DNA of 61,500 bases from a virus (IMGVR_UViG_3300047509_000139:1-61500); one strand, 5' to 3'; numbered from the stretch's first letter, positions 27,697 through 35,192 are shown. A program made the numbers and translations. Notes: generated by a model not told the origin, from the sequence alone.

Positions 27697-28101
27697 TCAC
27701 TGTATCGTTCCTTCCCGCTCTGCGTCTTTCGCCCTGAGCCACTGCCCGCGCGGACATATGCAGCGAGCACCGTTGACGAAGTAGCCCCAGCGAGGCGTCC
27801 ATCCATCCACTCCGATAGCATCCGCAGGCAGTTTGCACAACTCACAACCATCCGGAGCCTTCTCGGACTTTGCGGTTTCGCGTGCGATCTTGACCAGCTC
27901 AGCAATCGGGTTGTACCAGTTGGCAACGTTCTCCTGAAATATCTGGAGGACGAGTGATACGTGCATATCATCCTGGCAGTTGCGTTCAAGGGCAGCTACG
28001 ACTTCGCGCTTGCCGGTATCGCTCATGGCATCTAGCATCGGGATCGAGCTGAAAATTCTGTCGCATTCGTTTTTTACGTAATGCGTTATCGGTTTGCTCA
28101 T
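27697..28101 (-). CDS. putative replication accessory protein
   Basis: Directly follows the initiator; CELC...RCIC zinc motif. Confidence 0.55.
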   Translation of the reverse strand: MSKPITHYVKNECDRIFSSIPMLDAMSDTGKREVVAALERNCQDDMHVSLVLQIFQENVANWYNPIAELVKIARETAKSEKAPDGCELCKLPADAIGVDGWTPRWGYFVNGARCICPRGQWLRAKDAEREGTIQ

Positions 28102-28919
28102 AGATCTTTCCACCCTTTCCGTTGTTTCTCTGGTTCCGTTCTGGCCGGCGGTCGTATTGGGCGCTTCCACTCCACTTCCAAGAACTTTAGAGGCTTAGGT
28201 ATAAAACGGGGATTGCCTTGATATTCAGGCCGGTGTGCTCCAAGTGACGAGATCCTTTGACTTTTCTGATCAGGGTCTAGTGATTTCCAACAGAACTGAA
28301 ACGCCTGAGCAAAATCATCCTCGATGAATGCGCCGCCTAGTTTTTCGTATTCACTCTTGAACACTCCGAAGTCTTCGCTCTGCTTCCAGCGCTCATTAGA
28401 AAAGTGCCCGTTCTGCGGAACCTGAACGGACGTTGAACGAACGTTAGGAACGCCCTCTCTTGTTTTTGTAGTTGAAGTAGTTGTTGTAGTAGTAGGTATA
28501 GGTATAGGTTCAACAGCCGTTGTCAAGTCCGTTGTGGTATCCGTTTGAACAGATCTTGAACGAACGTTCAACGCTCGTTCGCGTCTTGCTTGCCCTGATT
28601 TTACTCCAGCAGTTTTCTTTTGAGCATGATAGGAGAATAGACGTTCGCGGACTTCGTCTACCTTGCGATGTACCAACCTGTCTCCATTTGGAGTTGAAAC
28701 CGCCTCGAACAGTACGCAAACTTCGCTCCATGCTGACGCGAACTCGCGCCCATCCGTACCAGATATGAGCTTGATCTGGTTTTTATCAGCCGGCAAACTT
28801 CCCTCCAAGTAACAATAATCGAGTAACTCTCGGTACAATCCGCGACCGGCAAGAGACAGCTTTAAGCGCGTTTCCGATTCCCTCCAGTCGGCTATGTACC
28901 ATGGGTAAGACTGAATCAA
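28098..28919 (-). CDS. DUF1376/YdaU-family phage replication initiator
   Basis: YPWYIADW...LSLAGRGLYRELLDYCY.EGSLP; low-complexity linker with repeats. Confidence 0.8.
   Translation of the reverse strand: MIQSYPWYIADWRESETRLKLSLAGRGLYRELLDYCYLEGSLPADKNQIKLISGTDGREFASAWSEVCVLFEAVSTPNGDRLVHRKVDEVRERLFSYHAQKKTAGVKSGQARRERALNVRSRSVQTDTTTDLTTAVEPIPIPTTTTTTSTTKTREGVPNVRSTSVQVPQNGHFSNERWKQSEDFGVFKSEYEKLGGAFIEDDFAQAFQFCWKSLDPDQKSQRISSLGAHRPEYQGNPRFIPKPLKFLEVEWKRPIRPPARTEPEKQRKGWKDL
28423..28580. repeat. iteron-like repeats, putative origin inside the initiator gene
   Basis: TTGAACGAACGTT at 28433-28445 and 28556-28568 plus partial TGAAC copies flanking a strand-skewed tract. Confidence 0.5.
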
Positions 28920-29226
28920 ATGACCGATTCCTCCCAGTAGCGCAGTAGATACTCAGCGAGTTGTTCGGCGGACGCACTTCTAGCGTCCAACGTGTTCGAA
29001 TCGTTCATTGTTTCCCCAAACCCACGAGGAACAGTCGTGGGGGGCCGGATGGCGGGTTTGGGAGTTGGTTTGGAACCACCCAAGCCCCGTGTCCGACTGC
29101 TTGCCTACGCCGCGGGGATCAGCCGCTTGCGGTTGAACATCAGGCTTTCAAACTATACTACGACGCGGACCGAATTGCAATAGAAAACTATATATCAAGT
29201 AGCGGACAGAAAGCAACGGGAAAATA

Positions 29227-29255
29227 TTGCAATCGCGCCGGAGACGGCTTATAAT
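29227..29255 (+). promoter_or_regulatory. promoter of tRNA block 1
   Basis: TTGCAA-17 nt-TATAAT. Confidence 0.85.
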
Positions 29256-29261
29256 CCTTGC

Positions 29262-29333
29262 ATGGACCACGCAACCATGCGACTAAGCAGTTCACTCCGG
29301 TCCTTGTTATCACTCTGTTTGTATAGTTGGTAA
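29262..29333 (+). CDS. leader peptide 1 MDHATMRLSSSLRSLLSLCLYSW
   Basis: ATG 6 nt after TATAAT; 15 of the last 16 codons are Ser/Leu/Cys/Tyr/Trp, the amino acids of block 1. Confidence 0.75.
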   Translation: MDHATMRLSSSLRSLLSLCLYSW

Positions 29334-29339
29334 TCCCAC

Positions 29340-29430
29340 CGAAGGGATGGGAGCAGTTGGCCGCTCCGCTCGTTTGCTAAACGAGAAATCCTTTTGGGAC
29401 ACGAGGGTTCGATTCCCTCCCCTTCGGCCA
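29340..29430 (+). tRNA. tRNA-Ser(GCT)
   Basis: Cloverleaf, long variable arm, loop TTGCTAA, G73-CCA. Confidence 0.85.
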
Positions 29431-29432
29431 TA

Positions 29433-29443
29433 GCTCTTTGACA
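29433..29443 (+). promoter_or_regulatory. boxA-like antitermination site
   Basis: GCTCTTTGACA versus rrn boxA GCTCTTTAACA. Confidence 0.65.
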
Positions 29444-29455
29444 TCTGAATCTTTT

Positions 29456-29543
29456 GGGTGGTTCGTCTAGCGGCAATGGCTCCTGGCTGTAACCCAGGCG
29501 ACGGTCTCCGTCTACATAGGTTCGAGTCCTATACCACCCACCA
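29456..29543 (+). tRNA. tRNA-Tyr(GTA)
   Basis: Cloverleaf with variable arm, loop CTGTAAC, CCA. Confidence 0.92.
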
Positions 29544-29546
29544 TGT

Positions 29547-29631
29547 GGCCCTCTGGCGTAATTGGCAGCCGCGCTGGTCCTAGAAACCAGTGCCTTCGGG
29601 CGTAAGAGTTCAAGTCTCTTGGGGGCCACCA
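29547..29631 (+). tRNA. tRNA-Leu(TAG)
   Basis: Loop CCTAGAA (C33), variable arm, CCA. Confidence 0.92.
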
Positions 29632-29639
29632 AAGTTTTT

Positions 29640-29723
29640 AGGCCCGTGGTGGAACGGTTTACGCAGCGCGCTCAAAACGCGTGGTCTTCGGACATGAGGG
29701 TTCGACTCCCTCCGGGCCTACCA
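29640..29723 (+). tRNA. tRNA-Leu(CAA)
   Basis: Loop CTCAAAA, variable arm, CCA. Confidence 0.92.
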
Positions 29724-29728
29724 AAGAT

Positions 29729-29804
29729 GGGGGATAGGCTCGACTGGGAGAGCGCCGGACTCCAAACCCGGTATTGCAGAGTTCGAATCTCTGATCCCCC
29801 GCCA
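29729..29804 (+). tRNA. tRNA-Trp(CCA)
   Basis: Loop CTCCAAA, G73-CCA. Confidence 0.9.
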
Positions 29805-29816
29805 AGAACATAATAC

Positions 29817-29891
29817 CCAGGGGATGCTGATCGGTTAAGCGGTCGCCTGCAAAGCGACTTGTGGCGGGTTCGATTCCCGCTCCCTGGTCCA
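29817..29891 (+). tRNA. tRNA-Cys(GCA)
   Basis: Loop CTGCAAA, U73-CCA. Confidence 0.9.
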
Positions 29892-29892
29892 C

Positions 29893-29979
29893 GGAAGGTA
29901 GGGGGCTCTGGGATGCCCAACCAGCTTCGAATACTGGCCCTCCGCAAGGATGATCGTTCGAATCGATTACCTTCCGCCA
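29893..29979 (+). tRNA. tRNA-Ser(CGA), 8/4 fold
   Basis: GGAAGGTA/TACCTTCC acceptor, ATCG/CGAT T stem, loop TTCGAAT. Confidence 0.8.
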
Positions 29980-29986
29980 CTTTCAC

Positions 29987-30071
29987 GGAGAGTACGGCAG
30001 TAGGATCTGCAATCGGGTTTGAATTCCGACGCTCCTTCGGGATGGCCGTTCGAGTCGGCTACTCTCCTCCA
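29987..30071 (+). tRNA. tRNA-Ser(TGA), 8/4 fold
   Basis: GGAGAGTA/TACTCTCC, GCCG/CGGC, loop TTTGAAT. Confidence 0.8.
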
Positions 30072-30079
30072 TGCCTTGC

Positions 30080-30164
30080 AGAGAGCGCCGCCGATGGTTG
30101 GCGACCGGTTTGGAACACCGGGGATTCCTTCGGGAATGCGGTTCGATTCCGCCGCTCTCTGCCA
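30080..30164 (+). tRNA. tRNA-Ser(GGA), 8/4 fold
   Basis: AGAGAGCG/CGCTCTCT, GCGG/CCGC, loop TTGGAAC. Confidence 0.85.
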
Positions 30165-30173
30165 AAATACCTG

Positions 30174-30202
30174 TTGCAATGTTCAAAACTTTGCTTTAGT
30201 AT
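30174..30202 (+). promoter_or_regulatory. promoter of tRNA block 2
   Basis: TTGCAA-17 nt-TAGTAT. Confidence 0.75.
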
Positions 30203-30253
30203 TGAATTGCGAAGGAACTGCCCTACCCAGTAGGCATTTAGACTGTTTAGACA

Positions 30254-30346
30254 ATGATTCGAACCGTCCAATTCGGGAGAAGGCCGCAAGGAACAAATCC
30301 AACGTGCGCCGCCATCATGGCAGACACGCATGAAGGCGGTCCTTAG
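30254..30346 (+). CDS. leader peptide 2 MIRTVQFGRRPQGTNPTCAAIMADTHEGGP
   Basis: 30 codons, 26 different; no Ser/Leu/Tyr/Trp; stop codon overlaps the antiterminator strand. Confidence 0.7.
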   Translation: MIRTVQFGRRPQGTNPTCAAIMADTHEGGP

Positions 30347-30384
30347 CCCCAGTTGAACAGGTGTTGTTAGTTTTCAACGGGGCT
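30345..30384 (+). promoter_or_regulatory. antiterminator hairpin
   Basis: AGCCCC-A-GTTGAA (30345-30357) pairs with TTCAACGGGGCT (30373-30384), which overlaps the terminator 5' arm. Confidence 0.75.
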
Positions 30385-30413
30385 GATCGAAAGATTGGCC
30401 CCGTTTTGTTTTT
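30376..30413 (+). terminator. intrinsic terminator (attenuator) before tRNA block 2
   Basis: AACGGGGCTGATC-GAAA-GATTGGCCCCGTT followed by TTGTTTTT. Confidence 0.85.
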
Positions 30414-30414
30414 G

Positions 30415-30488
30415 CGGGGTGTAGCTGGAAGGTCGAGCCCGTGGCCTGGGACCACGAGATTGGAGTTCAATTCTCCACACCCCGACCA
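30415..30488 (+). tRNA. tRNA-Pro(TGG)
   Basis: Loop CCTGGGA (C33), CCA. Confidence 0.88.
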
Positions 30489-30495
30489 TGAGTTT

Positions 30496-30573
30496 CGGGA
30501 TGTAGCGCAGTCTGGTCAGCGCACACGCCTCGGGCGCGTGGGGCCGCTGGTTCGAATCCAGCCATCCAGACCA
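30496..30573 (+). tRNA. tRNA-Pro(CGG)
   Basis: Loop CTCGGGC, CCA. Confidence 0.92.
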
Positions 30574-30656
30574 AGTTCGCTGCGGCGAGAATCGTCACGG
30601 AAGACGGGATGCTGCTGTAAGGGCGATAACCGTAGCACCCGCGCCACAGCGATTCA

Positions 30657-30668
30657 GTTCTTTGACAA
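30657..30668 (+). promoter_or_regulatory. boxA-like antitermination site
   Basis: GTTCTTTGACAA, preceded by a branched hairpin at 30577-30652. Confidence 0.65.
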
Positions 30669-30688
30669 TTGAAAGTCTTGATTCATAA

Positions 30689-30762
30689 GCGGGCGTGGTA
30701 TAGAGGCCGTGCCCTGGGCTTCCAACCCAGAGACGAGGATTCGAATTCCTCCACCCGCTCCA
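30689..30762 (+). tRNA. tRNA-Gly(TCC)
   Basis: Loop CTTCCAA, U73-CCA. Confidence 0.9.
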
Positions 30763-30770
30763 ATTTGCTT

Positions 30771-30845
30771 GCTGGGTTCGTCTAGCGGCTAGGATTGGGC
30801 GTTGCCAATGCTCAGACACGGGTTCGAGTCCCGTACCCCGCACCA
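30771..30845 (+). tRNA. tRNA-Gly(GCC)
   Basis: Loop TTGCCAA, CCA. Confidence 0.88.
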
Positions 30846-30846
30846 T

Positions 30847-30921
30847 GCCGGAATAGCTCAGGTGGAAGAGCACCTCACTCGTAACGAGGAGATCTGGTTT
30901 CGATTACCAGTTCTGGCTCCA
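30847..30921 (+). tRNA. tRNA-Thr(CGT)
   Basis: Loop CTCGTAA, CCA. Confidence 0.9.
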
Positions 30922-30995
30922 GCCGGTATAGCTCAGTGGAAGAGCAGTTGCTTGGTAAGCAACCGACGAGCGTTCAATTCGCTCTGCTGGCTCCA
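30922..30995 (+). tRNA. tRNA-Thr(GGT)
   Basis: Loop TTGGTAA, CCA. Confidence 0.92.
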
Positions 30996-31001
30996 AGTTT
31001 T

Positions 31002-31076
31002 GCCGCGCAAGCATTGCTGGCGATGCGCTGCTCCTGTAAAGCAGTGAATTCCGTTCGATTCGGAAGCGTGGCTCCA
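31002..31076 (+). tRNA. tRNA-Thr(TGT)
   Basis: Loop CCTGTAA (C33), CCA. Confidence 0.88.
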
Positions 31077-31077
31077 T

Positions 31078-31154
31078 CCCCTCCAAGCTCTCCGGGTGGG
31101 CGCTCGTCTGATACGCGAGTTATCGACTGTGTTCGATTCACAGGGAGGGGACCA
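31078..31154 (+). tRNA. tRNA-Ile(GAT)
   Basis: Loop CTGATAC, CCA. Confidence 0.85.
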
Positions 31155-31201
31155 AGTTCTATTGCGGAACCCGGTGCGTTATGCCGTAGCATATAAGCTT
31201 A

Positions 31202-31550
31202 ATGGCGAACCGATACGCATACGTAAAGAAGGCAATTGCTAAAAGGAAACTCTGGGCCGACAAACTTAAGGATCGTCCATGTGAGCGATGTGGTATCAGG
31301 TATCCGCCATGTTGTCATGGAGTGGCATCATAGAGATCGAGCCAAGAAGTCCTTTGGGATTGGCCCAGGCAATTTTACGCGCAGTCGCAAGTTGTTACTT
31401 GAAGAGATTGCCAAGTGCGATTTGTATTGCGCTAACTGTCATCGTTTGGTTGAGGAATCATTGCGGCGAAGTGGACCGGTGCCATGCGAGGCTCATAACC
31501 TCAGCGAGTCCGTTCAACTCGGAACGCCGCAACCATTTTTGGGGTGCTAG
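31202..31550 (+). pseudogene. HNH endonuclease inserted in the tRNA array, frameshifted
   Basis: KDRPCERCGIRYPP in one frame; VMEWHH...EEIAKCDLYCANCHR in the next; extra base near 31290. Confidence 0.8.
31462..31535 (+). tRNA. tRNA-Met(CAT), initiator-like
   Basis: TGCGGCG/CGCCGCA-A-CCA, loop CTCATAA. Confidence 0.8.
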
Positions 31551-31616
31551 CTCATTCAGGAGAGCGCCGGTCCTGCAAACCGGAGGCGCTGGGGGCAGAG
31601 CCCAGGCATTCCACCA
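31541..31616 (+). tRNA. tRNA-Ala(TGC)
   Basis: G3:U70, loop CCTGCAA (C33), atypical T loop GGCAGAG. Confidence 0.85.
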
Positions 31617-31621
31617 TTTTC

Positions 31622-31697
31622 GCAGGGGAGGCCGTCGTGGTCGAGGCGCTGGCCTGAAAAGCCAGACAAGCACGTTCGATTCGTGCCCCCTGCACCA
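31622..31697 (+). tRNA. tRNA-Phe(GAA)
   Basis: Loop CTGAAAA, CCA. Confidence 0.88.
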
Positions 31698-31700
31698 GAT

Positions 31701-31775
31701 GTGACCGTGGCCGAGTGGCTTAGGCGTGCGGCTGTGAACCGCTCCACGAGAGTTCAATTCTCTCCGGTCACCCCA
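31701..31775 (+). tRNA. tRNA-His(GTG)
   Basis: Loop CTGTGAA, C73-CCA; T rather than G at -1. Confidence 0.9.
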
Positions 31776-31782
31776 TTGTTGA

Positions 31783-31857
31783 TGGCGGGTCGTTCAGTGG
31801 CCAGGACGGCAGATTTTGAATCTGTTCACGCCGGTTCGAGTCCGGCCCCGCTAACCA
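31783..31857 (+). tRNA. tRNA-Gln(TTG)
   Basis: U1-A72, loop TTTTGAA, CCA. Confidence 0.9.
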
Positions 31858-31858
31858 T

Positions 31859-31933
31859 AGCCGGTTCATTCAGCGCTTAGGATTCCTGGCTCTGACCCAG
31901 GCCACGAAGGTTGAAATCCTTCACCGGCTACCA
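31859..31933 (+). tRNA. tRNA-Gln(CTG)
   Basis: Loop CTCTGAC; D loop GC and T loop TTG (swapped 19:56 pair). Confidence 0.85.
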
Positions 31934-31940
31934 TTTTCAA

Positions 31941-32018
31941 GCCCCCGTCGTTCAATGGATTAGGATACTGCGCTACGAACGCAGAGATTTGTAGGTTCGA
32001 GTCCTACCGGGGGTACCA
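31941..32018 (+). tRNA. tRNA-Arg(ACG)
   Basis: Loop CTACGAA, A20, CCA. Confidence 0.92.
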
Positions 32019-32022
32019 TTTT

Positions 32023-32100
32023 GACCGTGTAGCTCAGTTGGAAACGAGCGCTGTCCTCCGAAGGCAGAGGCCGCTGGTTCGATCCCAGCCACGGTCACCA
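32023..32100 (+). tRNA. tRNA-Arg(CCG)
   Basis: Loop CTCCGAA, A20, CCA. Confidence 0.92.
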
Positions 32101-32108
32101 AAGTTTAT

Positions 32109-32183
32109 GGGCGCGTCTTCCAGCGGCCAGGATGGGGCTCTGTCTAAGCCTCGACGGGAGTTCAACTCTCCTCGCGCCCGCCA
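32109..32183 (+). tRNA. tRNA-Asp(GTC)
   Basis: Loop CTGTCTA (U37), G73-CCA. Confidence 0.88.
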
Positions 32184-32189
32184 TATTAC

Positions 32190-32266
32190 GTCCGCATGGT
32201 GCAGACGGCTAGCATACCTGATTCTCAATCAGGAGATCGCGGGTTCGAGTCCCGCTGCGGACGCCA
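32190..32266 (+). tRNA. tRNA-Glu(CTC)
   Basis: Loop TTCTCAA, CCA. Confidence 0.92.
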
Positions 32267-32267
32267 C

Positions 32268-32343
32268 GGCCCAGAGCACGAACGGATGAGTGCCCTGACT
32301 TTCAATCAGGTGACAGTGGGGTCAGCACCCACCTGGGCTACCA
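32268..32343 (+). tRNA. tRNA-Glu(TTC)
   Basis: Loop CTTTCAA; atypical T loop GTCAGCA. Confidence 0.8.
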
Positions 32344-32350
32344 AGTTTTC

Positions 32351-32425
32351 GGGACCAAAGCTTAGATGGCGAAGCAGGAGGCTCTTAACCTTCAGAACTC
32401 GGTTCGATTCCGAGTGGTCCCACCA
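32351..32425 (+). tRNA. tRNA-Lys(CTT)
   Basis: Loop CTCTTAA, CCA. Confidence 0.9.
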
Positions 32426-32431
32426 AGTTGT

Positions 32432-32518
32432 TGGCAGGTACCCGAGCGGTAGCAGGGATCTGGCTGTTAACCAGACGGCGCAAGCCCATCGCAGGTTCGA
32501 ATCCTGCCCTGCCAGCCA
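32432..32518 (+). tRNA. tRNA-Asn(GTT) with long variable arm
   Basis: U1-A72, G73, loop CTGTTAA, GGC-GCAA-GCC variable hairpin. Confidence 0.88.
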
Positions 32519-32526
32519 ACATTCGA

Positions 32527-32600
32527 TTCCTGGTCGTCCAACGGCAGGGCGGTGTTCTTATAAAGCACTTACGGTGGTTCGACTCCACCCCAGGGAACCA
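32527..32600 (+). tRNA. tRNA-Ile(TAT)
   Basis: Loop CTTATAA, A73-CCA. Confidence 0.88.
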
Positions 32601-32601
32601 T

Positions 32602-32680
32602 GCGGGAGTCACCGGTATTGGCATCCGGTCCTAGTCCTACAAACTAGTGATTGCTGGTTCAATTCCAGCCTCCCGTACCA
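32602..32680 (+). tRNA. tRNA-Val(TAC)
   Basis: Loop CCTACAA (C33); 5-bp D stem. Confidence 0.85.
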
Positions 32681-32685
32681 TTTTC

Positions 32686-32761
32686 GGGAAGGTAGCTCAA
32701 ACGGCAGAGCGCAGTCCTTTTAAGTCTGGCGATCGGGGTTCGAGGCCCCGCCTTCCCACCA
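32686..32761 (+). tRNA. tRNA-Lys(TTT)
   Basis: Loop CTTTTAA, CCA. Confidence 0.88.
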
Positions 32762-32763
32762 AG

Positions 32764-32842
32764 ATCCCCGTATCGGTCCTGTTTCCTAAACAGGTAAAGC
32801 CGTAATTGGACGATGCGAGTTCGAGTCTCGCCGGGGATACCA
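32764..32842 (+). tRNA. non-canonical tRNA-Arg(CCT), D arm absent from its usual position
   Basis: 7-bp acceptor, CCTGT-TTCCTAA-ACAGG, CGT-AATTGG-ACG 3' of the anticodon arm, canonical T arm, CCA. Confidence 0.75.
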
Positions 32843-32843
32843 C

Positions 32844-32920
32844 GGGCGCGTACCGGCCTCGGTTTCTACCCGAGTTCACCGTAATGGACGATGCGGGTTC
32901 AAGTCCCGCCGCGCCTTCCA
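32844..32920 (+). tRNA. non-canonical tRNA-Arg(TCT), D arm absent from its usual position
   Basis: 7-bp acceptor, CTCGG-TTTCTAC-CCGAG, CGT-AATGG-ACG 3' of the anticodon arm, canonical T arm, CCA. Confidence 0.75.
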
Positions 32921-33031
32921 CCTCGTTCGTTGAGCTTGCCGCACGCGATGGCATCGCGCTTGCGCACCGCTCTCCGAAGCTTGCGCCGTTTCTGCTCGTT
33001 GCGCCACTTCGTCTGTTCTCGTGTAGTCATC

Positions 33032-33244
33032 TCAGTTTCGAGCCTTTGCCCTGGAGTCGATGGCCGGCCCAGGCATGGAAGTTATGAACCACCGGTCATC
33101 GTCGTTCTCGCCGAGTGCCCAGAGCAGGGTCTTGCATGCAGCTATCTTGCTGTAGACGATGCGAGGATCGTGAGCTTTGCGGCAGTCCATGGAGAGCAGT
33201 GCTTTCAGTTTTTCTCTCAACTCCTGCTTTGTCTTGACGCTCAT
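33032..33244 (-). CDS. hypothetical protein
   Basis: AGGAG upstream of MSVKTKQ; ATGA overlap. Confidence 0.5.
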   Translation of the reverse strand: MSVKTKQELREKLKALLSMDCRKAHDPRIVYSKIAACKTLLWALGENDDDRWFITSMPGPAIDSRAKARN

Positions 33245-33570
33245 TGCGAACTCCTTGGCAGCGCTGGGCCGTCGCTCAGCCGATTCTTCAACCTGCCCTG
33301 ATTCGCCGGAGTAAAGTCTTCCTGGTCCAGCTTTTCGCGCGGGTTGAGAGCTTGCAACGCTCCGTCCTTGGTCAACCAAAACAGAGAGTCGCCGCCGAAT
33401 GGTATGGTACTACCCTGGCGTACGCATGCGTTTCCCTCGACAACCATTTGCATCCAGTCCACATAATCATCGTGATCTACGCCGGCAACGAAGCGGTTGC
33501 GGTAGGACATCCGCATCTTGTTCGGCAAGCCCAAGGCATGGCGAGCGAGTTCCCTTTGTTTCTCTGTCAT
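33241..33570 (-). CDS. conserved phage protein (ARHALGL...SYRNRF type)
   Basis: QRELARHALGLPN...SYRNRFVAG. Confidence 0.7.
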   Translation of the reverse strand: MTEKQRELARHALGLPNKMRMSYRNRFVAGVDHDDYVDWMQMVVEGNACVRQGSTIPFGGDSLFWLTKDGALQALNPREKLDQEDFTPANQGRLKNRLSDGPALPRSSQ

Positions 33571-35154: not shown

Positions 35155-35192
35155 CATGCGTTGAATATACCAGTATTCAAGTTGGATGTCAA
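35155..35192 (-). promoter_or_regulatory. repeated promoter/operator copy 4
   Basis: TTGACA-17-TATATT, palindrome, ATG 6 nt downstream. Confidence 0.85.

What the first reader, a model, noticed from the sequence alone, without database searches (positions are those of the whole stretch)
29227..32920. Two tRNA operons, each headed by a leader ORF written in the codons its own tRNAs serve: candidate tRNA-depletion sensor
Seen: the 35 tRNAs split into block 1 (Ser x4, Leu x2, Tyr, Trp, Cys) and block 2 (the other 15 amino acids) with no amino acid shared. Each block has its own TTGCAA promoter and short ORF. Leader 1 ends in 16 codons of which 15 are Ser/Leu/Cys/Tyr/Trp. Leader 2 has no Ser/Leu/Tyr/Trp, 29 of its 30 codons are block-2 amino acids, and it covers 14 of those 15 (no Lys). 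Known: leader-peptide attenuation (trp, his, ilv operons) reads charged-tRNA supply, and phage tRNAs are thought to offset host tRNA destruction. Inference: a ribosome stalling on any depleted host tRNA switches on the replacement set. I do not know of this being described for tRNA arrays.
Basis: partly seen in the sequence, partly recalled or inferred. Interest (0 to 1): 0.95.

Follow-up and report, generated by a model that had tools for sequence, protein, structure and literature searches.

The report
Leader-peptide attenuators controlling phage tRNA operons
A soil phage puts a tiny coding frame, spelled almost only in the amino acids its downstream tRNA genes serve, in front of each tRNA block, and the same design recurs in unrelated huge phages, which points to a switch not found in print that makes replacement tRNAs when the cell runs short of them.

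Summary
The window is a 61.5 kb phage record with a 35-tRNA array in two blocks, each behind a promoter-like site and a short ORF. Leader 1's last 16 codons are the single most Ser/Leu/Tyr/Trp/Cys-rich stop-free stretch in the window (1 of 78,604). Leader 2 is among the poorest 0.6% (317 of 55,300).

Leader 2 has the anatomy of a trp/his-type attenuator. Its stop codon opens an antiterminator arm, which competes with a 13-bp terminator ending 10 nt before the first tRNA.

No close relative of this array was found. A blind survey of 122 viral tRNA arrays and three 634-642 kb phage genomes turned up the same design about 20 times, including seven consecutive Gln codons before four tRNA-Gln genes. 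Leaders match their own tRNA sets (0 of 100,000 permutations reach the observed score).

Leader 1 has the composition and a leaderless-gene promoter context. It has no terminator, so its mechanism is open.

Nothing is shown experimentally. Seven literature searches and the main text of the huge-phage paper gave no description of this for tRNA genes. Verdict: a new variant of leader-peptide attenuation, of high interest.

The parts
29152..29180 (-). Divergent promoter-like site (TTGCAA-17-TATAGT) for the leftward DUF1376 gene
   Evidence: Pfam DUF1376 for 28098-28919
29227..29255 (+). P1, sigma-70-like promoter (TTGCAA-17-TATAAT, 10 of 12)
29262..29333 (+). Leader 1 ORF, 23 codons. Its ATG lies 6 nt after the -10 hexamer, the same spacing as at four other promoter-ATG pairs of this phage. 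15 of its last 16 codons are Ser/Leu/Cys/Tyr/Trp.
29340..30164 (+). tRNA block 1: Ser-GCT, Tyr-GTA, Leu-TAG, Leu-CAA, Trp-CCA, Cys-GCA, Ser-CGA, Ser-TGA, Ser-GGA
30174..30202 (+). P2, weaker promoter-like site (TTGCAA-17-TAGTAT, 8 of 12)
   Evidence: own regex; not listed by the scan
30254..30346 (+). Leader 2 ORF, 30 codons, of which 29 are block-2 amino acids. The N-terminus carries the R-T-V motif shared with leaders of other phages.
30263..30277 (+). Region 1, inside leader 2. It pairs with region 2 in the minimum-energy fold of the untranslated leader.
30344..30363 (+). Region 2, the 5' arm of the antiterminator. It begins with the leader 2 stop codon.
   Evidence: 2:3 hairpin 30344-30385, -17.8 kcal/mol
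30366..30385 (+). Region 3, the 3' arm of the antiterminator. Its last 10 nt are the start of the terminator 5' arm.
30376..30414 (+). Intrinsic terminator: 13-bp stem, 7 G-C pairs, 4-nt loop, then a T-rich tract that ends at the first base of tRNA-Pro
   Evidence: -22.2 kcal/mol
30415..32916 (+). tRNA block 2, 26 tRNAs for 15 amino acids. Two are unusual Arg tRNAs at about 32764-32843 and 32844-32916.
31202..31550 (+). HNH-like gene inside block 2, split over two frames (31202-31333 and 31236-31550). Its 3' end overlaps tRNA-Met.
   Evidence: Cys/His motif read by eye; Pfam gave no hit

Best explanation
Leader 2 with the hairpins behind it is a ribosome-mediated transcription attenuator that gates the 26 tRNA genes of block 2.

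Transcripts from P2, and read-through from P1, carry a 30-codon frame that uses almost only amino acids served by block-2 tRNAs. If those charged tRNAs are plentiful, the ribosome runs to the stop codon. That codon is the first triplet of the antiterminator arm, so the arm is covered, the 13-bp terminator forms, and RNA polymerase stops 1-10 nt before tRNA-Pro. If any of those tRNAs is scarce, the ribosome stalls upstream. Scarcity could come from host tRNA cleavage, host shut-off, a codon-usage mismatch or amino-acid starvation. The free arm then pairs with the terminator's 5' arm and polymerase reads into the tRNA genes. The new tRNAs relieve the stall, which closes a feedback loop.

Leader 1 follows the same spelling rule for block 1 and sits in this phage's leaderless-gene context, so it is probably translated. 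It lacks a terminator. It is either a sensor that works by another route, for example a stalled ribosome masking a Rho entry site as in the tna operon, or a leader whose terminator was lost.

Shown here: the sequences, the statistics, the alternative pairings and the recurrence in other phages. Inferred: translation of the leaders, stalling, and regulated read-through.
For: 1. Composition extremes sit exactly at the heads of the matching blocks.

2. The terminator ends directly at the first block-2 tRNA, with no room for a promoter after it.

3. An antiterminator hairpin of -17.8 kcal/mol competes with a terminator of -22.2 kcal/mol. They share 10 nt, and the stop codon lies inside the antiterminator arm. 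A 1:2 pairing appears in the untranslated fold.

4. A terminator within 35 nt upstream of a tRNA is rare: 10 of 604 gaps of at least 60 nt in 122 viral loci plus the window. 6 of those 10 carry an upstream ORF with an N-terminal R-T-I/V motif: window, L131 three times, L122 and L176. That motif occurs in 54 of 18,978 other small ORFs.

5. In 20 units defined by structure alone, from the window, G001/L131, LR745206.1, LR756502.1, LR756504.1, L122 and L176, leaders match their own tRNA sets. The summed score is 51.1, against a permutation mean of 10.5, sd 3.9 and maximum 31.6. 0 of 100,000 permutations reach it. The result holds without the window: 45.4 against 9.5, again 0 of 100,000. 12 of 20 leaders rank their own set first.

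6. Clear cases. Seven consecutive Gln codons precede four tRNA-Gln genes (L198). A leader whose first 27 codons use only the seven amino acids of its unit plus Met precedes that unit (G001).

7. In 11 of 19 units the leader pairs with the terminator 5' arm better than at least 95% of shuffles. The mean z is -2.3, and the window scores 13 of 300.

8. Homologous leaders are 21-71% identical yet keep the match.

9. This phage starts at least four genes 6-7 nt after a -10 hexamer, as at leader 1. Few of its genes have a Shine-Dalgarno site, so the lack of one before leader 2 is not unusual here.
Against: - There is no transcript, ribosome or reporter data. The only sequencing run that holds this DNA is a DNA run.
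- Leader 1 has no terminator or alternative fold that touches the tRNA.
- P2 matches only 8 of 12 consensus positions, and leader 2 has no Shine-Dalgarno site.
- At equilibrium the terminator wins under every ribosome mask I modelled. Antitermination would therefore have to be kinetic, as it is in trp.
- The window's own antiterminator score is modest: 13 of 300 shuffles do as well.
- Leader 2's composition alone is a 0.6% event, and its amino-acid coverage is not significant.
- Leader 1 begins with 7 block-2 codons and holds one Arg codon and one Leu codon (TTA) with no tRNA in the array. Leader 2 holds one Cys.
- Across all viral arrays the design is rare. 775 upstream ORFs before 429 blocks give a near-null distribution; of the 766 informative ones, 45 have p<0.05, 14 p<0.01 and 3 p<0.001.
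- The huge-phage units are related to one another, so the 20 units are not 20 independent events.
- No relative of the window's own array was found, so conservation of these two particular leaders is untested.
Confidence: 0.66

Rival explanations
1. Coincidence plus ordinary signals. The hairpin at 30376-30405 is simply the terminator of the block-1 operon, or a leaky internal terminator. The two small ORFs are untranslated chance frames, and block 2 is made by read-through.
For: The finding was made after looking at the sequence. Leader 2's composition is only a 0.6% event and its coverage is not significant. P2 is weak. The survey of 775 upstream ORFs is close to null overall.
Against: Leader 1 is the extreme of 78,604 windows and lies at the right place. 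The same ORF-antiterminator-terminator-tRNA layout, with matched composition and a shared N-terminal motif, recurs in four other phage lineages.
Confidence: 0.1
2. The attenuators are real but report general translation capacity or amino-acid starvation. They would be a growth-state gauge, not specifically a sensor of host tRNA loss caused by defence nucleases.
For: A ribosome stalls for any lack of charged tRNA. Leader 2 samples 14 amino acids with no run of any one codon, which suits a general gauge. Classical attenuators read amino-acid supply, as stated in the listed start of the abstract of PMC1183508.
Against: Narrow leaders in huge phages are matched one-to-one to small tRNA sets, such as Gln only, Arg+Ser, or Arg+Ile+Met. 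Making more tRNA does not cure amino-acid starvation, so tRNA level is the variable that the output can correct.
Confidence: 0.25
3. Leader 1 is a relic. It is an attenuator leader whose terminator was deleted, so block 1 is now constitutive from P1 and the ORF has no present function.
For: There is no terminator, the stop codon lies 6 nt from tRNA-Ser, and the leader and the tRNA fold independently. All other members found have a terminator.
Against: The frame is intact, sits at the spacing of this phage's leaderless genes and keeps an extreme composition. The region is G-poor, 19% G against 30% C, which would suit a Rho entry site masked by a stalled ribosome. That last point is speculation.
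Confidence: 0.3
4. The small ORFs encode functional peptides, for example membrane or regulatory peptides, whose composition is unrelated to the tRNAs.
For: Leader 1's tail is hydrophobic and rich in Ser and Leu, like many small membrane peptides. A conserved N-terminal motif could mark a peptide family.
Against: The variable middle of the leaders tracks the tRNA set behind each one and changes when the set changes. The 3' ends of the ORFs are constrained as RNA arms.
Confidence: 0.04

Closest known systems
Leader-peptide transcription attenuators of amino-acid operons (trpL, hisL, pheL, leuL, thrL, ilv leaders)
   Same: They share a promoter, a short ORF with regulatory codons, a stop codon at the antiterminator arm, mutually exclusive antiterminator and terminator hairpins, and a 1:2 pairing for the untranslated state. 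Multivalent leaders such as thr and ilv are a precedent for mixed codons (recalled).
   Different: The regulated genes are tRNAs, not enzymes. The leader lists the amino acids of the tRNA genes behind it, up to 14 kinds, rather than one pathway's product. The host is a phage. The output feeds straight back on the sensed quantity. No Rfam leader family matches.
Leader-terminator-tRNA units found here in other phages (G001/L131, L122, L176, LR745206.1, LR756502.1, LR756504.1)
   Same: They have a 17-39 codon ORF with an N-terminal M-[KRT]-[TN]-[ITVL] or R-T-I/V motif, a middle stretch matched to the downstream tRNAs, an ORF 3' part that can pair with the terminator's 5' arm, and a terminator at most 45 nt before the first tRNA.
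   Different: Those phages have 27-42% G+C against 56% here. Their sets are narrow, 1-7 amino acids, apart from L122 with 12, against 15 here. There is no sequence similarity beyond the short motif, so common descent is not shown. Leader 1 has no counterpart among them.
Polycysteine leaderless short-ORF attenuators of mycobacteria (bioRxiv 10.1101/834739; abstract and outline read)
   Same: Both have a leaderless short ORF at the 5' end of an operon whose codon tract makes ribosomes pause when one charged tRNA is short. This is the closest precedent for leader 1's layout.
   Different: [quoted passage not shown]
T-box riboswitches
   Same: They have the same logical task: read tRNA charging and adjust genes of the translation supply chain through an antiterminator/terminator choice (recalled).
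   Different: A T-box binds the tRNA directly and needs no ORF. No T-box or other Rfam cis-regulator is detected in 28800-33300 at E up to 1.
Phage tRNAs as counter-defence against tRNA-cleaving systems (PARIS, retron effectors, Schlafen)
   Same: They give a reason for a phage to carry replacement tRNAs. Sources: PMC11464382 and PMC11555353 (starts of abstracts in the search listing) and PMC13056530 (passages).
   Different: My searches did not show those papers describing any leader-peptide control of the phage tRNA genes.

Membership tests
Ribosome-mediated (leader-peptide) transcription attenuator | Short ORF between the promoter and the regulated genes | tested here: met
   Leader 1 at 29262-29333 and leader 2 at 30254-30346
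Ribosome-mediated (leader-peptide) transcription attenuator | Regulatory codons cognate to what the operon supplies | tested here: met
   15 of the last 16 codons (leader 1) and 29 of 30 codons (leader 2) belong to the block's amino acids. Both are extremes within the window.
Ribosome-mediated (leader-peptide) transcription attenuator | Intrinsic terminator between the leader ORF and the first regulated gene | tested here: met
   Met for leader 2: 30376-30405 plus a T tract. NOT met for leader 1: nothing lies between the stop at 29333 and the tRNA at 29340.
Ribosome-mediated (leader-peptide) transcription attenuator | Antiterminator that overlaps the terminator's 5' arm and is covered by a ribosome at the stop codon | tested here: met
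   Leader 2 only. The hairpin 30344-30385 shares 10 nt with the terminator and starts with the stop codon. 13 of 300 shuffles pair as well.
Ribosome-mediated (leader-peptide) transcription attenuator | Leader is translated and read-through rises when the cognate charged tRNA is scarce | not testable with these tools
Phage tRNA-operon leader units found here | Terminator at most 45 nt before the first tRNA, with an ORF ending at most 90 nt before it | tested here: met
   Leader 2 is picked up by the same structural rule as the other 18 units. Leader 1 is not; it was added by coordinates.
Phage tRNA-operon leader units found here | N-terminal R/K-T-I/V motif | tested here: met
   Leader 2 has R-T-V at residues 3-5. 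Leader 1 does not. The background rate is 54 of 18,978 ORFs.
T-box riboswitch | Match to the T-box covariance model (specifier loop, T-box antiterminator) | tested here: not met
   No such match in 28800-33300 at E up to 1
Leaderless short-ORF attenuator (mycobacterial type) | Transcript starts at the ORF's start codon | tested here: inconclusive
   The ATG lies 6 nt after the -10 hexamer, as at four other genes of this phage. No transcription start site is mapped.
Leaderless short-ORF attenuator (mycobacterial type) | Stalled ribosome opens a structure that hides the next gene's ribosome-binding site | tested here: not met
   The next gene is a tRNA, and the leader and the tRNA fold separately.

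The most novel reading that the evidence does not exclude
Phages from an ~84 kb soil phage to the 634-642 kb giants run their tRNA genes as self-correcting operons. Each operon is headed by a leader peptide that lists the amino acids of the tRNAs behind it, so the translating ribosome itself reports which tRNA is missing and opens only the operon that can replace it. This would be a class of attenuator not found in print, and a built-in sensor of host tRNA depletion, including depletion by anticodon nucleases. Leader 1 would be a terminator-less, possibly Rho-dependent, version on a leaderless transcript.
Probability: 0.55. Interest if true: 0.95.

Novelty: new variant of a known kind. Interest (0 to 1): 0.9.

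Why it matters
Phage tRNA genes are usually treated as passive cargo that is simply expressed. If these leaders work as their anatomy says, phages regulate tRNA supply by demand, tRNA set by tRNA set, using the oldest known RNA switch for a new purpose.

- It would explain why tRNA arrays are cut into blocks.
- It gives a direct readout of which host tRNAs a phage expects to lose.
- It links tRNA arrays to the arms race with tRNA-cleaving defence systems.
- It offers compact, programmable sensors of single tRNA species.
- It makes the question 'what are phage tRNAs for' testable with simple reporter constructs.

Tried and rejected
Looking for relatives of this array:
- Neighbours of the flanking DUF1376 gene in viral contigs gave 6 loci with 0 tRNAs.
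- The protein search found 57 relatives, but the window's own protein is a singleton.
- Two exact stretches of the window searched in viral contigs gave 0 hits.
- An anticodon-loop order pattern (Leu-Trp-Cys) gave 54 hits, about the chance number, and 0 had a tRNA.
- BLAST of the array against 50,697 phage records matched single tRNAs only, with at most 4% of the query covered.

The odd Arg-tRNA motif gave 0 hits in viral contigs and 4 in metagenome contigs. 3 of those 4 hold tRNA arrays, but the arrays are dispersed among protein genes, have a different order and show no comparable leaders.

Sequencing runs: one DNA holder, which may be the source sample, and no RNA holder listed.

Other high-scoring ORFs of the survey (L116, L169, L158, L135, L097) have no terminator and look like noise. 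L155, L167, L090 and L123 have a terminator but no convincing leader.

R-T-I/V hits in L082, L086, L107, L109, L128 and L179 are frames running through tRNA or HNH genes or other false positives.

The RtcB neighbours of L122 in Bacillus phage Goe8 and Enterococcus phage EFDG1 have no tRNA genes nearby. L176 has no close isolate.

I looked for a terminator for leader 1 in the tRNA-Ser body. The scan flags 29369-29385, but that is the tRNA's anticodon stem, so I rejected it.

Literature: seven searches (and the find in PMC7162821) gave no paper on leader-peptide control of tRNA genes. Subscription journals and supplements were not searchable, and the supplements of the huge-phage paper could bear on this.

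Left out of counts:
- L064 (no tRNAs) and loci with fewer than 3 tRNAs were left out.
- Three further leaders seen by eye were not in the permutation test, because ARAGORN missed the first tRNA after their terminators. They are L190 17563-17649, L192 1530-1616 and L204 2170-2253.

Full report
WHAT THE WINDOW IS
The window is a whole IMG/VR virus record of 61,500 bases, estimated 73% complete. The only sequencing run that holds it is a soil metagenome. It encodes a DnaB-like helicase, another helicase, DNA methyltransferases and a tape-measure protein, so it is a tailed phage. The flanking genes on both sides of the tRNA array run on the - strand. The + strand array therefore needs its own promoters.

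CHECK OF THE OBSERVATION
tRNA count. ARAGORN finds 30 tRNAs. Rfam adds one at 31541-31613. A relaxed ARAGORN run adds Met-CAT, Glu-TTC and Arg-TCT, plus one it calls Leu-TAA. I read that last one as Arg-CCT from its canonical stem and loop. The caveat is that the partition 'no amino acid shared' rests on my reading of that one odd tRNA.

Blocks, promoters and leaders.
- Block 1 (29340-30164) holds Ser x4, Leu x2, Tyr, Trp and Cys.
- Block 2 (30415-32916) holds the rest.
- P1 (29227-29255) is a 10-of-12 match to the sigma-70 consensus.
- P2 (30174-30202) is an 8-of-12 match that only my regex lists.
- Leader 1 is 29262-29333 and leader 2 is 30254-30346.

IS IT MORE THAN CHANCE?
- Among 236 ATG ORFs of 20-40 codons in all six frames, leader 1 is the richest and leader 2 the poorest in block-1 amino acids.
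- Among 78,604 stop-free 16-codon windows, only one reaches 15 of 16, and it is the tail of leader 1.
- 317 of 55,300 stop-free 30-codon windows have at most one block-1 residue.
- Leader 1's tail is T-rich (40%) and leader 2 is T-poor (15%). Block-1 codons are T-rich, so part of the signal is base composition. By my own arithmetic, outside any call, a composition-aware estimate for leader 1 still gives about 1e-5.
- At codon level, 12 of the last 16 codons of leader 1 and 25 of 30 of leader 2 are read by their own block's anticodons with standard wobble. 8 of 9 and 20 of 26 tRNAs find a cognate codon.

ANATOMY OF LEADER 2
A 13-bp terminator with a T tract (30376-30414) ends at the first base of tRNA-Pro. 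No promoter can fit after it, so block 2 depends on read-through.

Just upstream, 30344-30385 folds into a -17.8 kcal/mol hairpin. Its 3' arm shares 10 nt with the terminator's 5' arm, and its 5' arm begins with the leader's stop codon. The terminator alone is -22.2 kcal/mol. In the untranslated leader, 30263-30277 pairs with 30347-30362.

This is the four-region layout of the trp and his attenuators. With every ribosome mask I tried, the equilibrium fold keeps the terminator. Any switch must therefore be kinetic, as in the classical cases.

ANATOMY OF LEADER 1
Its ATG lies 6 nt after the -10 hexamer. The same phage has at least four other consensus promoters followed 6-7 nt later by the ATG of an ORF: -10 ends at 35164, 16845, 12277 and 10200 on the - strand. 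Few genes have a Shine-Dalgarno site. Leader 1 therefore sits where this phage puts translated, leaderless genes.

However, its stop codon is 6 nt from tRNA-Ser. No terminator lies between them, and the leader and the tRNA fold independently. I found no switch.

RELATIVES OF THIS ARRAY
None were found. An unusual Arg-tRNA motif led to three metagenome arrays, but they have a different organisation.

BLIND SURVEY OF OTHER ARRAYS
A generic three-T-loop pattern returned 119 viral loci. Over those loci, three metagenome loci and the window, I tested 775 small ORFs upstream of 429 tRNA blocks for enrichment of the block's amino acids.
- The overall distribution is close to null. Of the 766 informative ORFs, 45 have p<0.05, 14 have p<0.01 and 3 have p<0.001.
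- Leader 1 ranks second of the 775.
- The design is therefore not general.

One AT-rich contig, L131, stood out. It has three paralogous leaders, each followed by a terminator directly before a tRNA block and each enriched in that block's amino acids. After fetching the rest of that record, the third leader's first 27 codons use only the seven amino acids of its unit (Asn, Ile, Arg, Thr, Leu, Cys, Val) plus Met.

A terminator within 35 nt upstream of a tRNA is rare, 10 of 604 gaps. 6 of the 10 carry a leader with an N-terminal R-T-I/V motif: the window's leader 2, L131 three times, L122 and L176. L176's leader precedes Trp, Pro, Ser and Cys tRNAs and contains all four amino acids.

HUGE PHAGES
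BLAST of the L131 array hit three unannotated records of 634,780, 642,428 and 636,363 bases. Their lengths match the '634, 636, 642 kb' genomes of PMC7162821 (passages). They hold 61, 50 and 45 tRNA matches in several clusters. I fetched the clusters and applied a purely structural rule: a terminator at most 45 nt before a tRNA, and an ATG ORF ending at most 90 nt before that terminator. This found 13 units in the three huge-phage records, 12 of them with a convincing leader, for example:
- a leader rich in Pro, Gln and Asp before Pro, Asp and Gln tRNAs
- Ile, Gly and Ala before Ile, Gly and Ala tRNAs
- Arg, Ile and Met before Arg, Ile and Met tRNAs
- Glu, Ala, Ile, Val and Gly before those five tRNAs
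- seven consecutive Gln codons before four tRNA-Gln genes, confirmed with the standard tools

Three more leaders were seen by eye where ARAGORN missed the first tRNA.

STATISTICS OVER THE FAMILY
- For 20 units (19 found by the structural rule, plus leader 1 by coordinates), the summed match of each leader to its own tRNA set is 51.1. Set permutations give a mean of 10.5, sd 3.9 and maximum 31.6, and 0 of 100,000 reach the observed value.
- Without the window the score is 45.4 against 9.5, again 0 of 100,000.
- 12 of 20 leaders rank their own set first.
- In 11 of 19 units the leader pairs with the terminator's 5' arm better than 95% of shuffles, with mean z -2.3.
- Homologous leaders are 21-71% identical while the match is kept.
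- The huge-phage units are related, so these are not 20 independent events. The test does show specificity between units within genomes.

HOW IT MOST LIKELY WORKS
Leader 2 most likely works as a classical attenuator with tRNA genes as its output, as set out under Best explanation.

For leader 1 I can only offer two options. One is a stalled ribosome masking a Rho entry site on a G-poor leader (19% G, 30% C), as in the tna operon (recalled). The other is a relic of a lost terminator.

COMPARISON WITH WHAT IS KNOWN
The mechanism class is known: leader-peptide attenuation. The target and the logic are not ones I could find described.
- Rfam has no matching family in the window or in five other loci.
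- Seven literature look-ups found nothing on tRNA genes under leader-peptide control.
- The huge-phage paper's main text has no occurrence of 'attenuat', 'leader' or 'terminator'.
- Mycobacterial leaderless polycysteine ORFs are the nearest precedent for leader 1's layout (abstract).

CAVEATS
- Nothing here shows translation, stalling or regulated termination.
- P2 is weak.
- The window's own antiterminator statistic is modest.
- The link to defence nucleases is a hypothesis.

VERDICT
This is a new variant of a known kind of switch, of high interest.

Noticed in passing
window 32764-32843 and 32844-32916; L062, L063, L064, L065: Two Arg tRNAs (anticodons CCT and TCT by eye) lack a normal D arm. 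The anticodon arm is nested in a short CCGG/CCG stem and is followed by a conserved GG-containing stretch before the T arm. The same build with anticodon TCT occurs in four metagenome contigs, three of which hold tRNA arrays. ARAGORN default misses all of them.
   Followed up: partly
window - strand, -10 hexamers ending at 35164, 16845, 12277, 10200 (also 43605 and near 797): Consensus promoters (TTGACA-17-TATATT) are followed 6-7 nt later by the ATG of an ORF, which suggests this phage makes many leaderless mRNAs. Shine-Dalgarno sites are scarce.
   Followed up: partly
window 31202-31550: An HNH-like gene between tRNA-Ile and tRNA-Met is split over two frames. This is either a one-base frameshift or an assembly error. 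Its 3' end runs into tRNA-Met. Pfam gives no hit, and the Cys/His motif was read by eye.
   Followed up: partly
window 29340-30164: Block 1 gathers all the long-variable-arm tRNAs (Ser, Leu, Tyr; 84-91 nt) together with Trp and Cys. A similar Leu/Ser/Cys cluster, with no leader or terminator before it, occurs in LR756504.1 (L206). Whether this reflects tRNA ancestry or a nuclease that targets long-arm tRNAs is unknown.
   Followed up: no
L122 (reverse strand), upstream of its leader: An RtcB-type RNA ligase gene, similar to those of Bacillus and Enterococcus Herelleviridae phages, lies just upstream of the attenuator-headed tRNA operon. A tRNA-repair gene thus sits next to regulated replacement tRNAs.
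   Followed up: partly
L194 1465-1538 (LR745206.1); L123 about 4142: ARAGORN reports a tRNA with a four-base anticodon (GTAG) inside an Asp/Pro/Gln operon of a huge phage. It also reports a CTA-anticodon suppressor tRNA in another viral array. These may be signs of frameshift suppression or stop-codon recoding.
   Followed up: no
L198 759-866 and 1738-1791 versus L194 804-899: In LR745206.1 one leader rich in Pro, Gln and Asp heads one operon of Pro, Asp and Gln tRNAs. In LR756502.1 the Gln tRNAs have their own poly-Gln leader and terminator, while the first leader still holds several Gln codons. This looks like a recent split of one unit into two.
   Followed up: partly
G001 (L131) and window block 2: HNH-type homing endonuclease genes sit inside attenuator-headed tRNA units without a leader or terminator of their own, so they appear to ride on the operon's transcription.
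   Followed up: no
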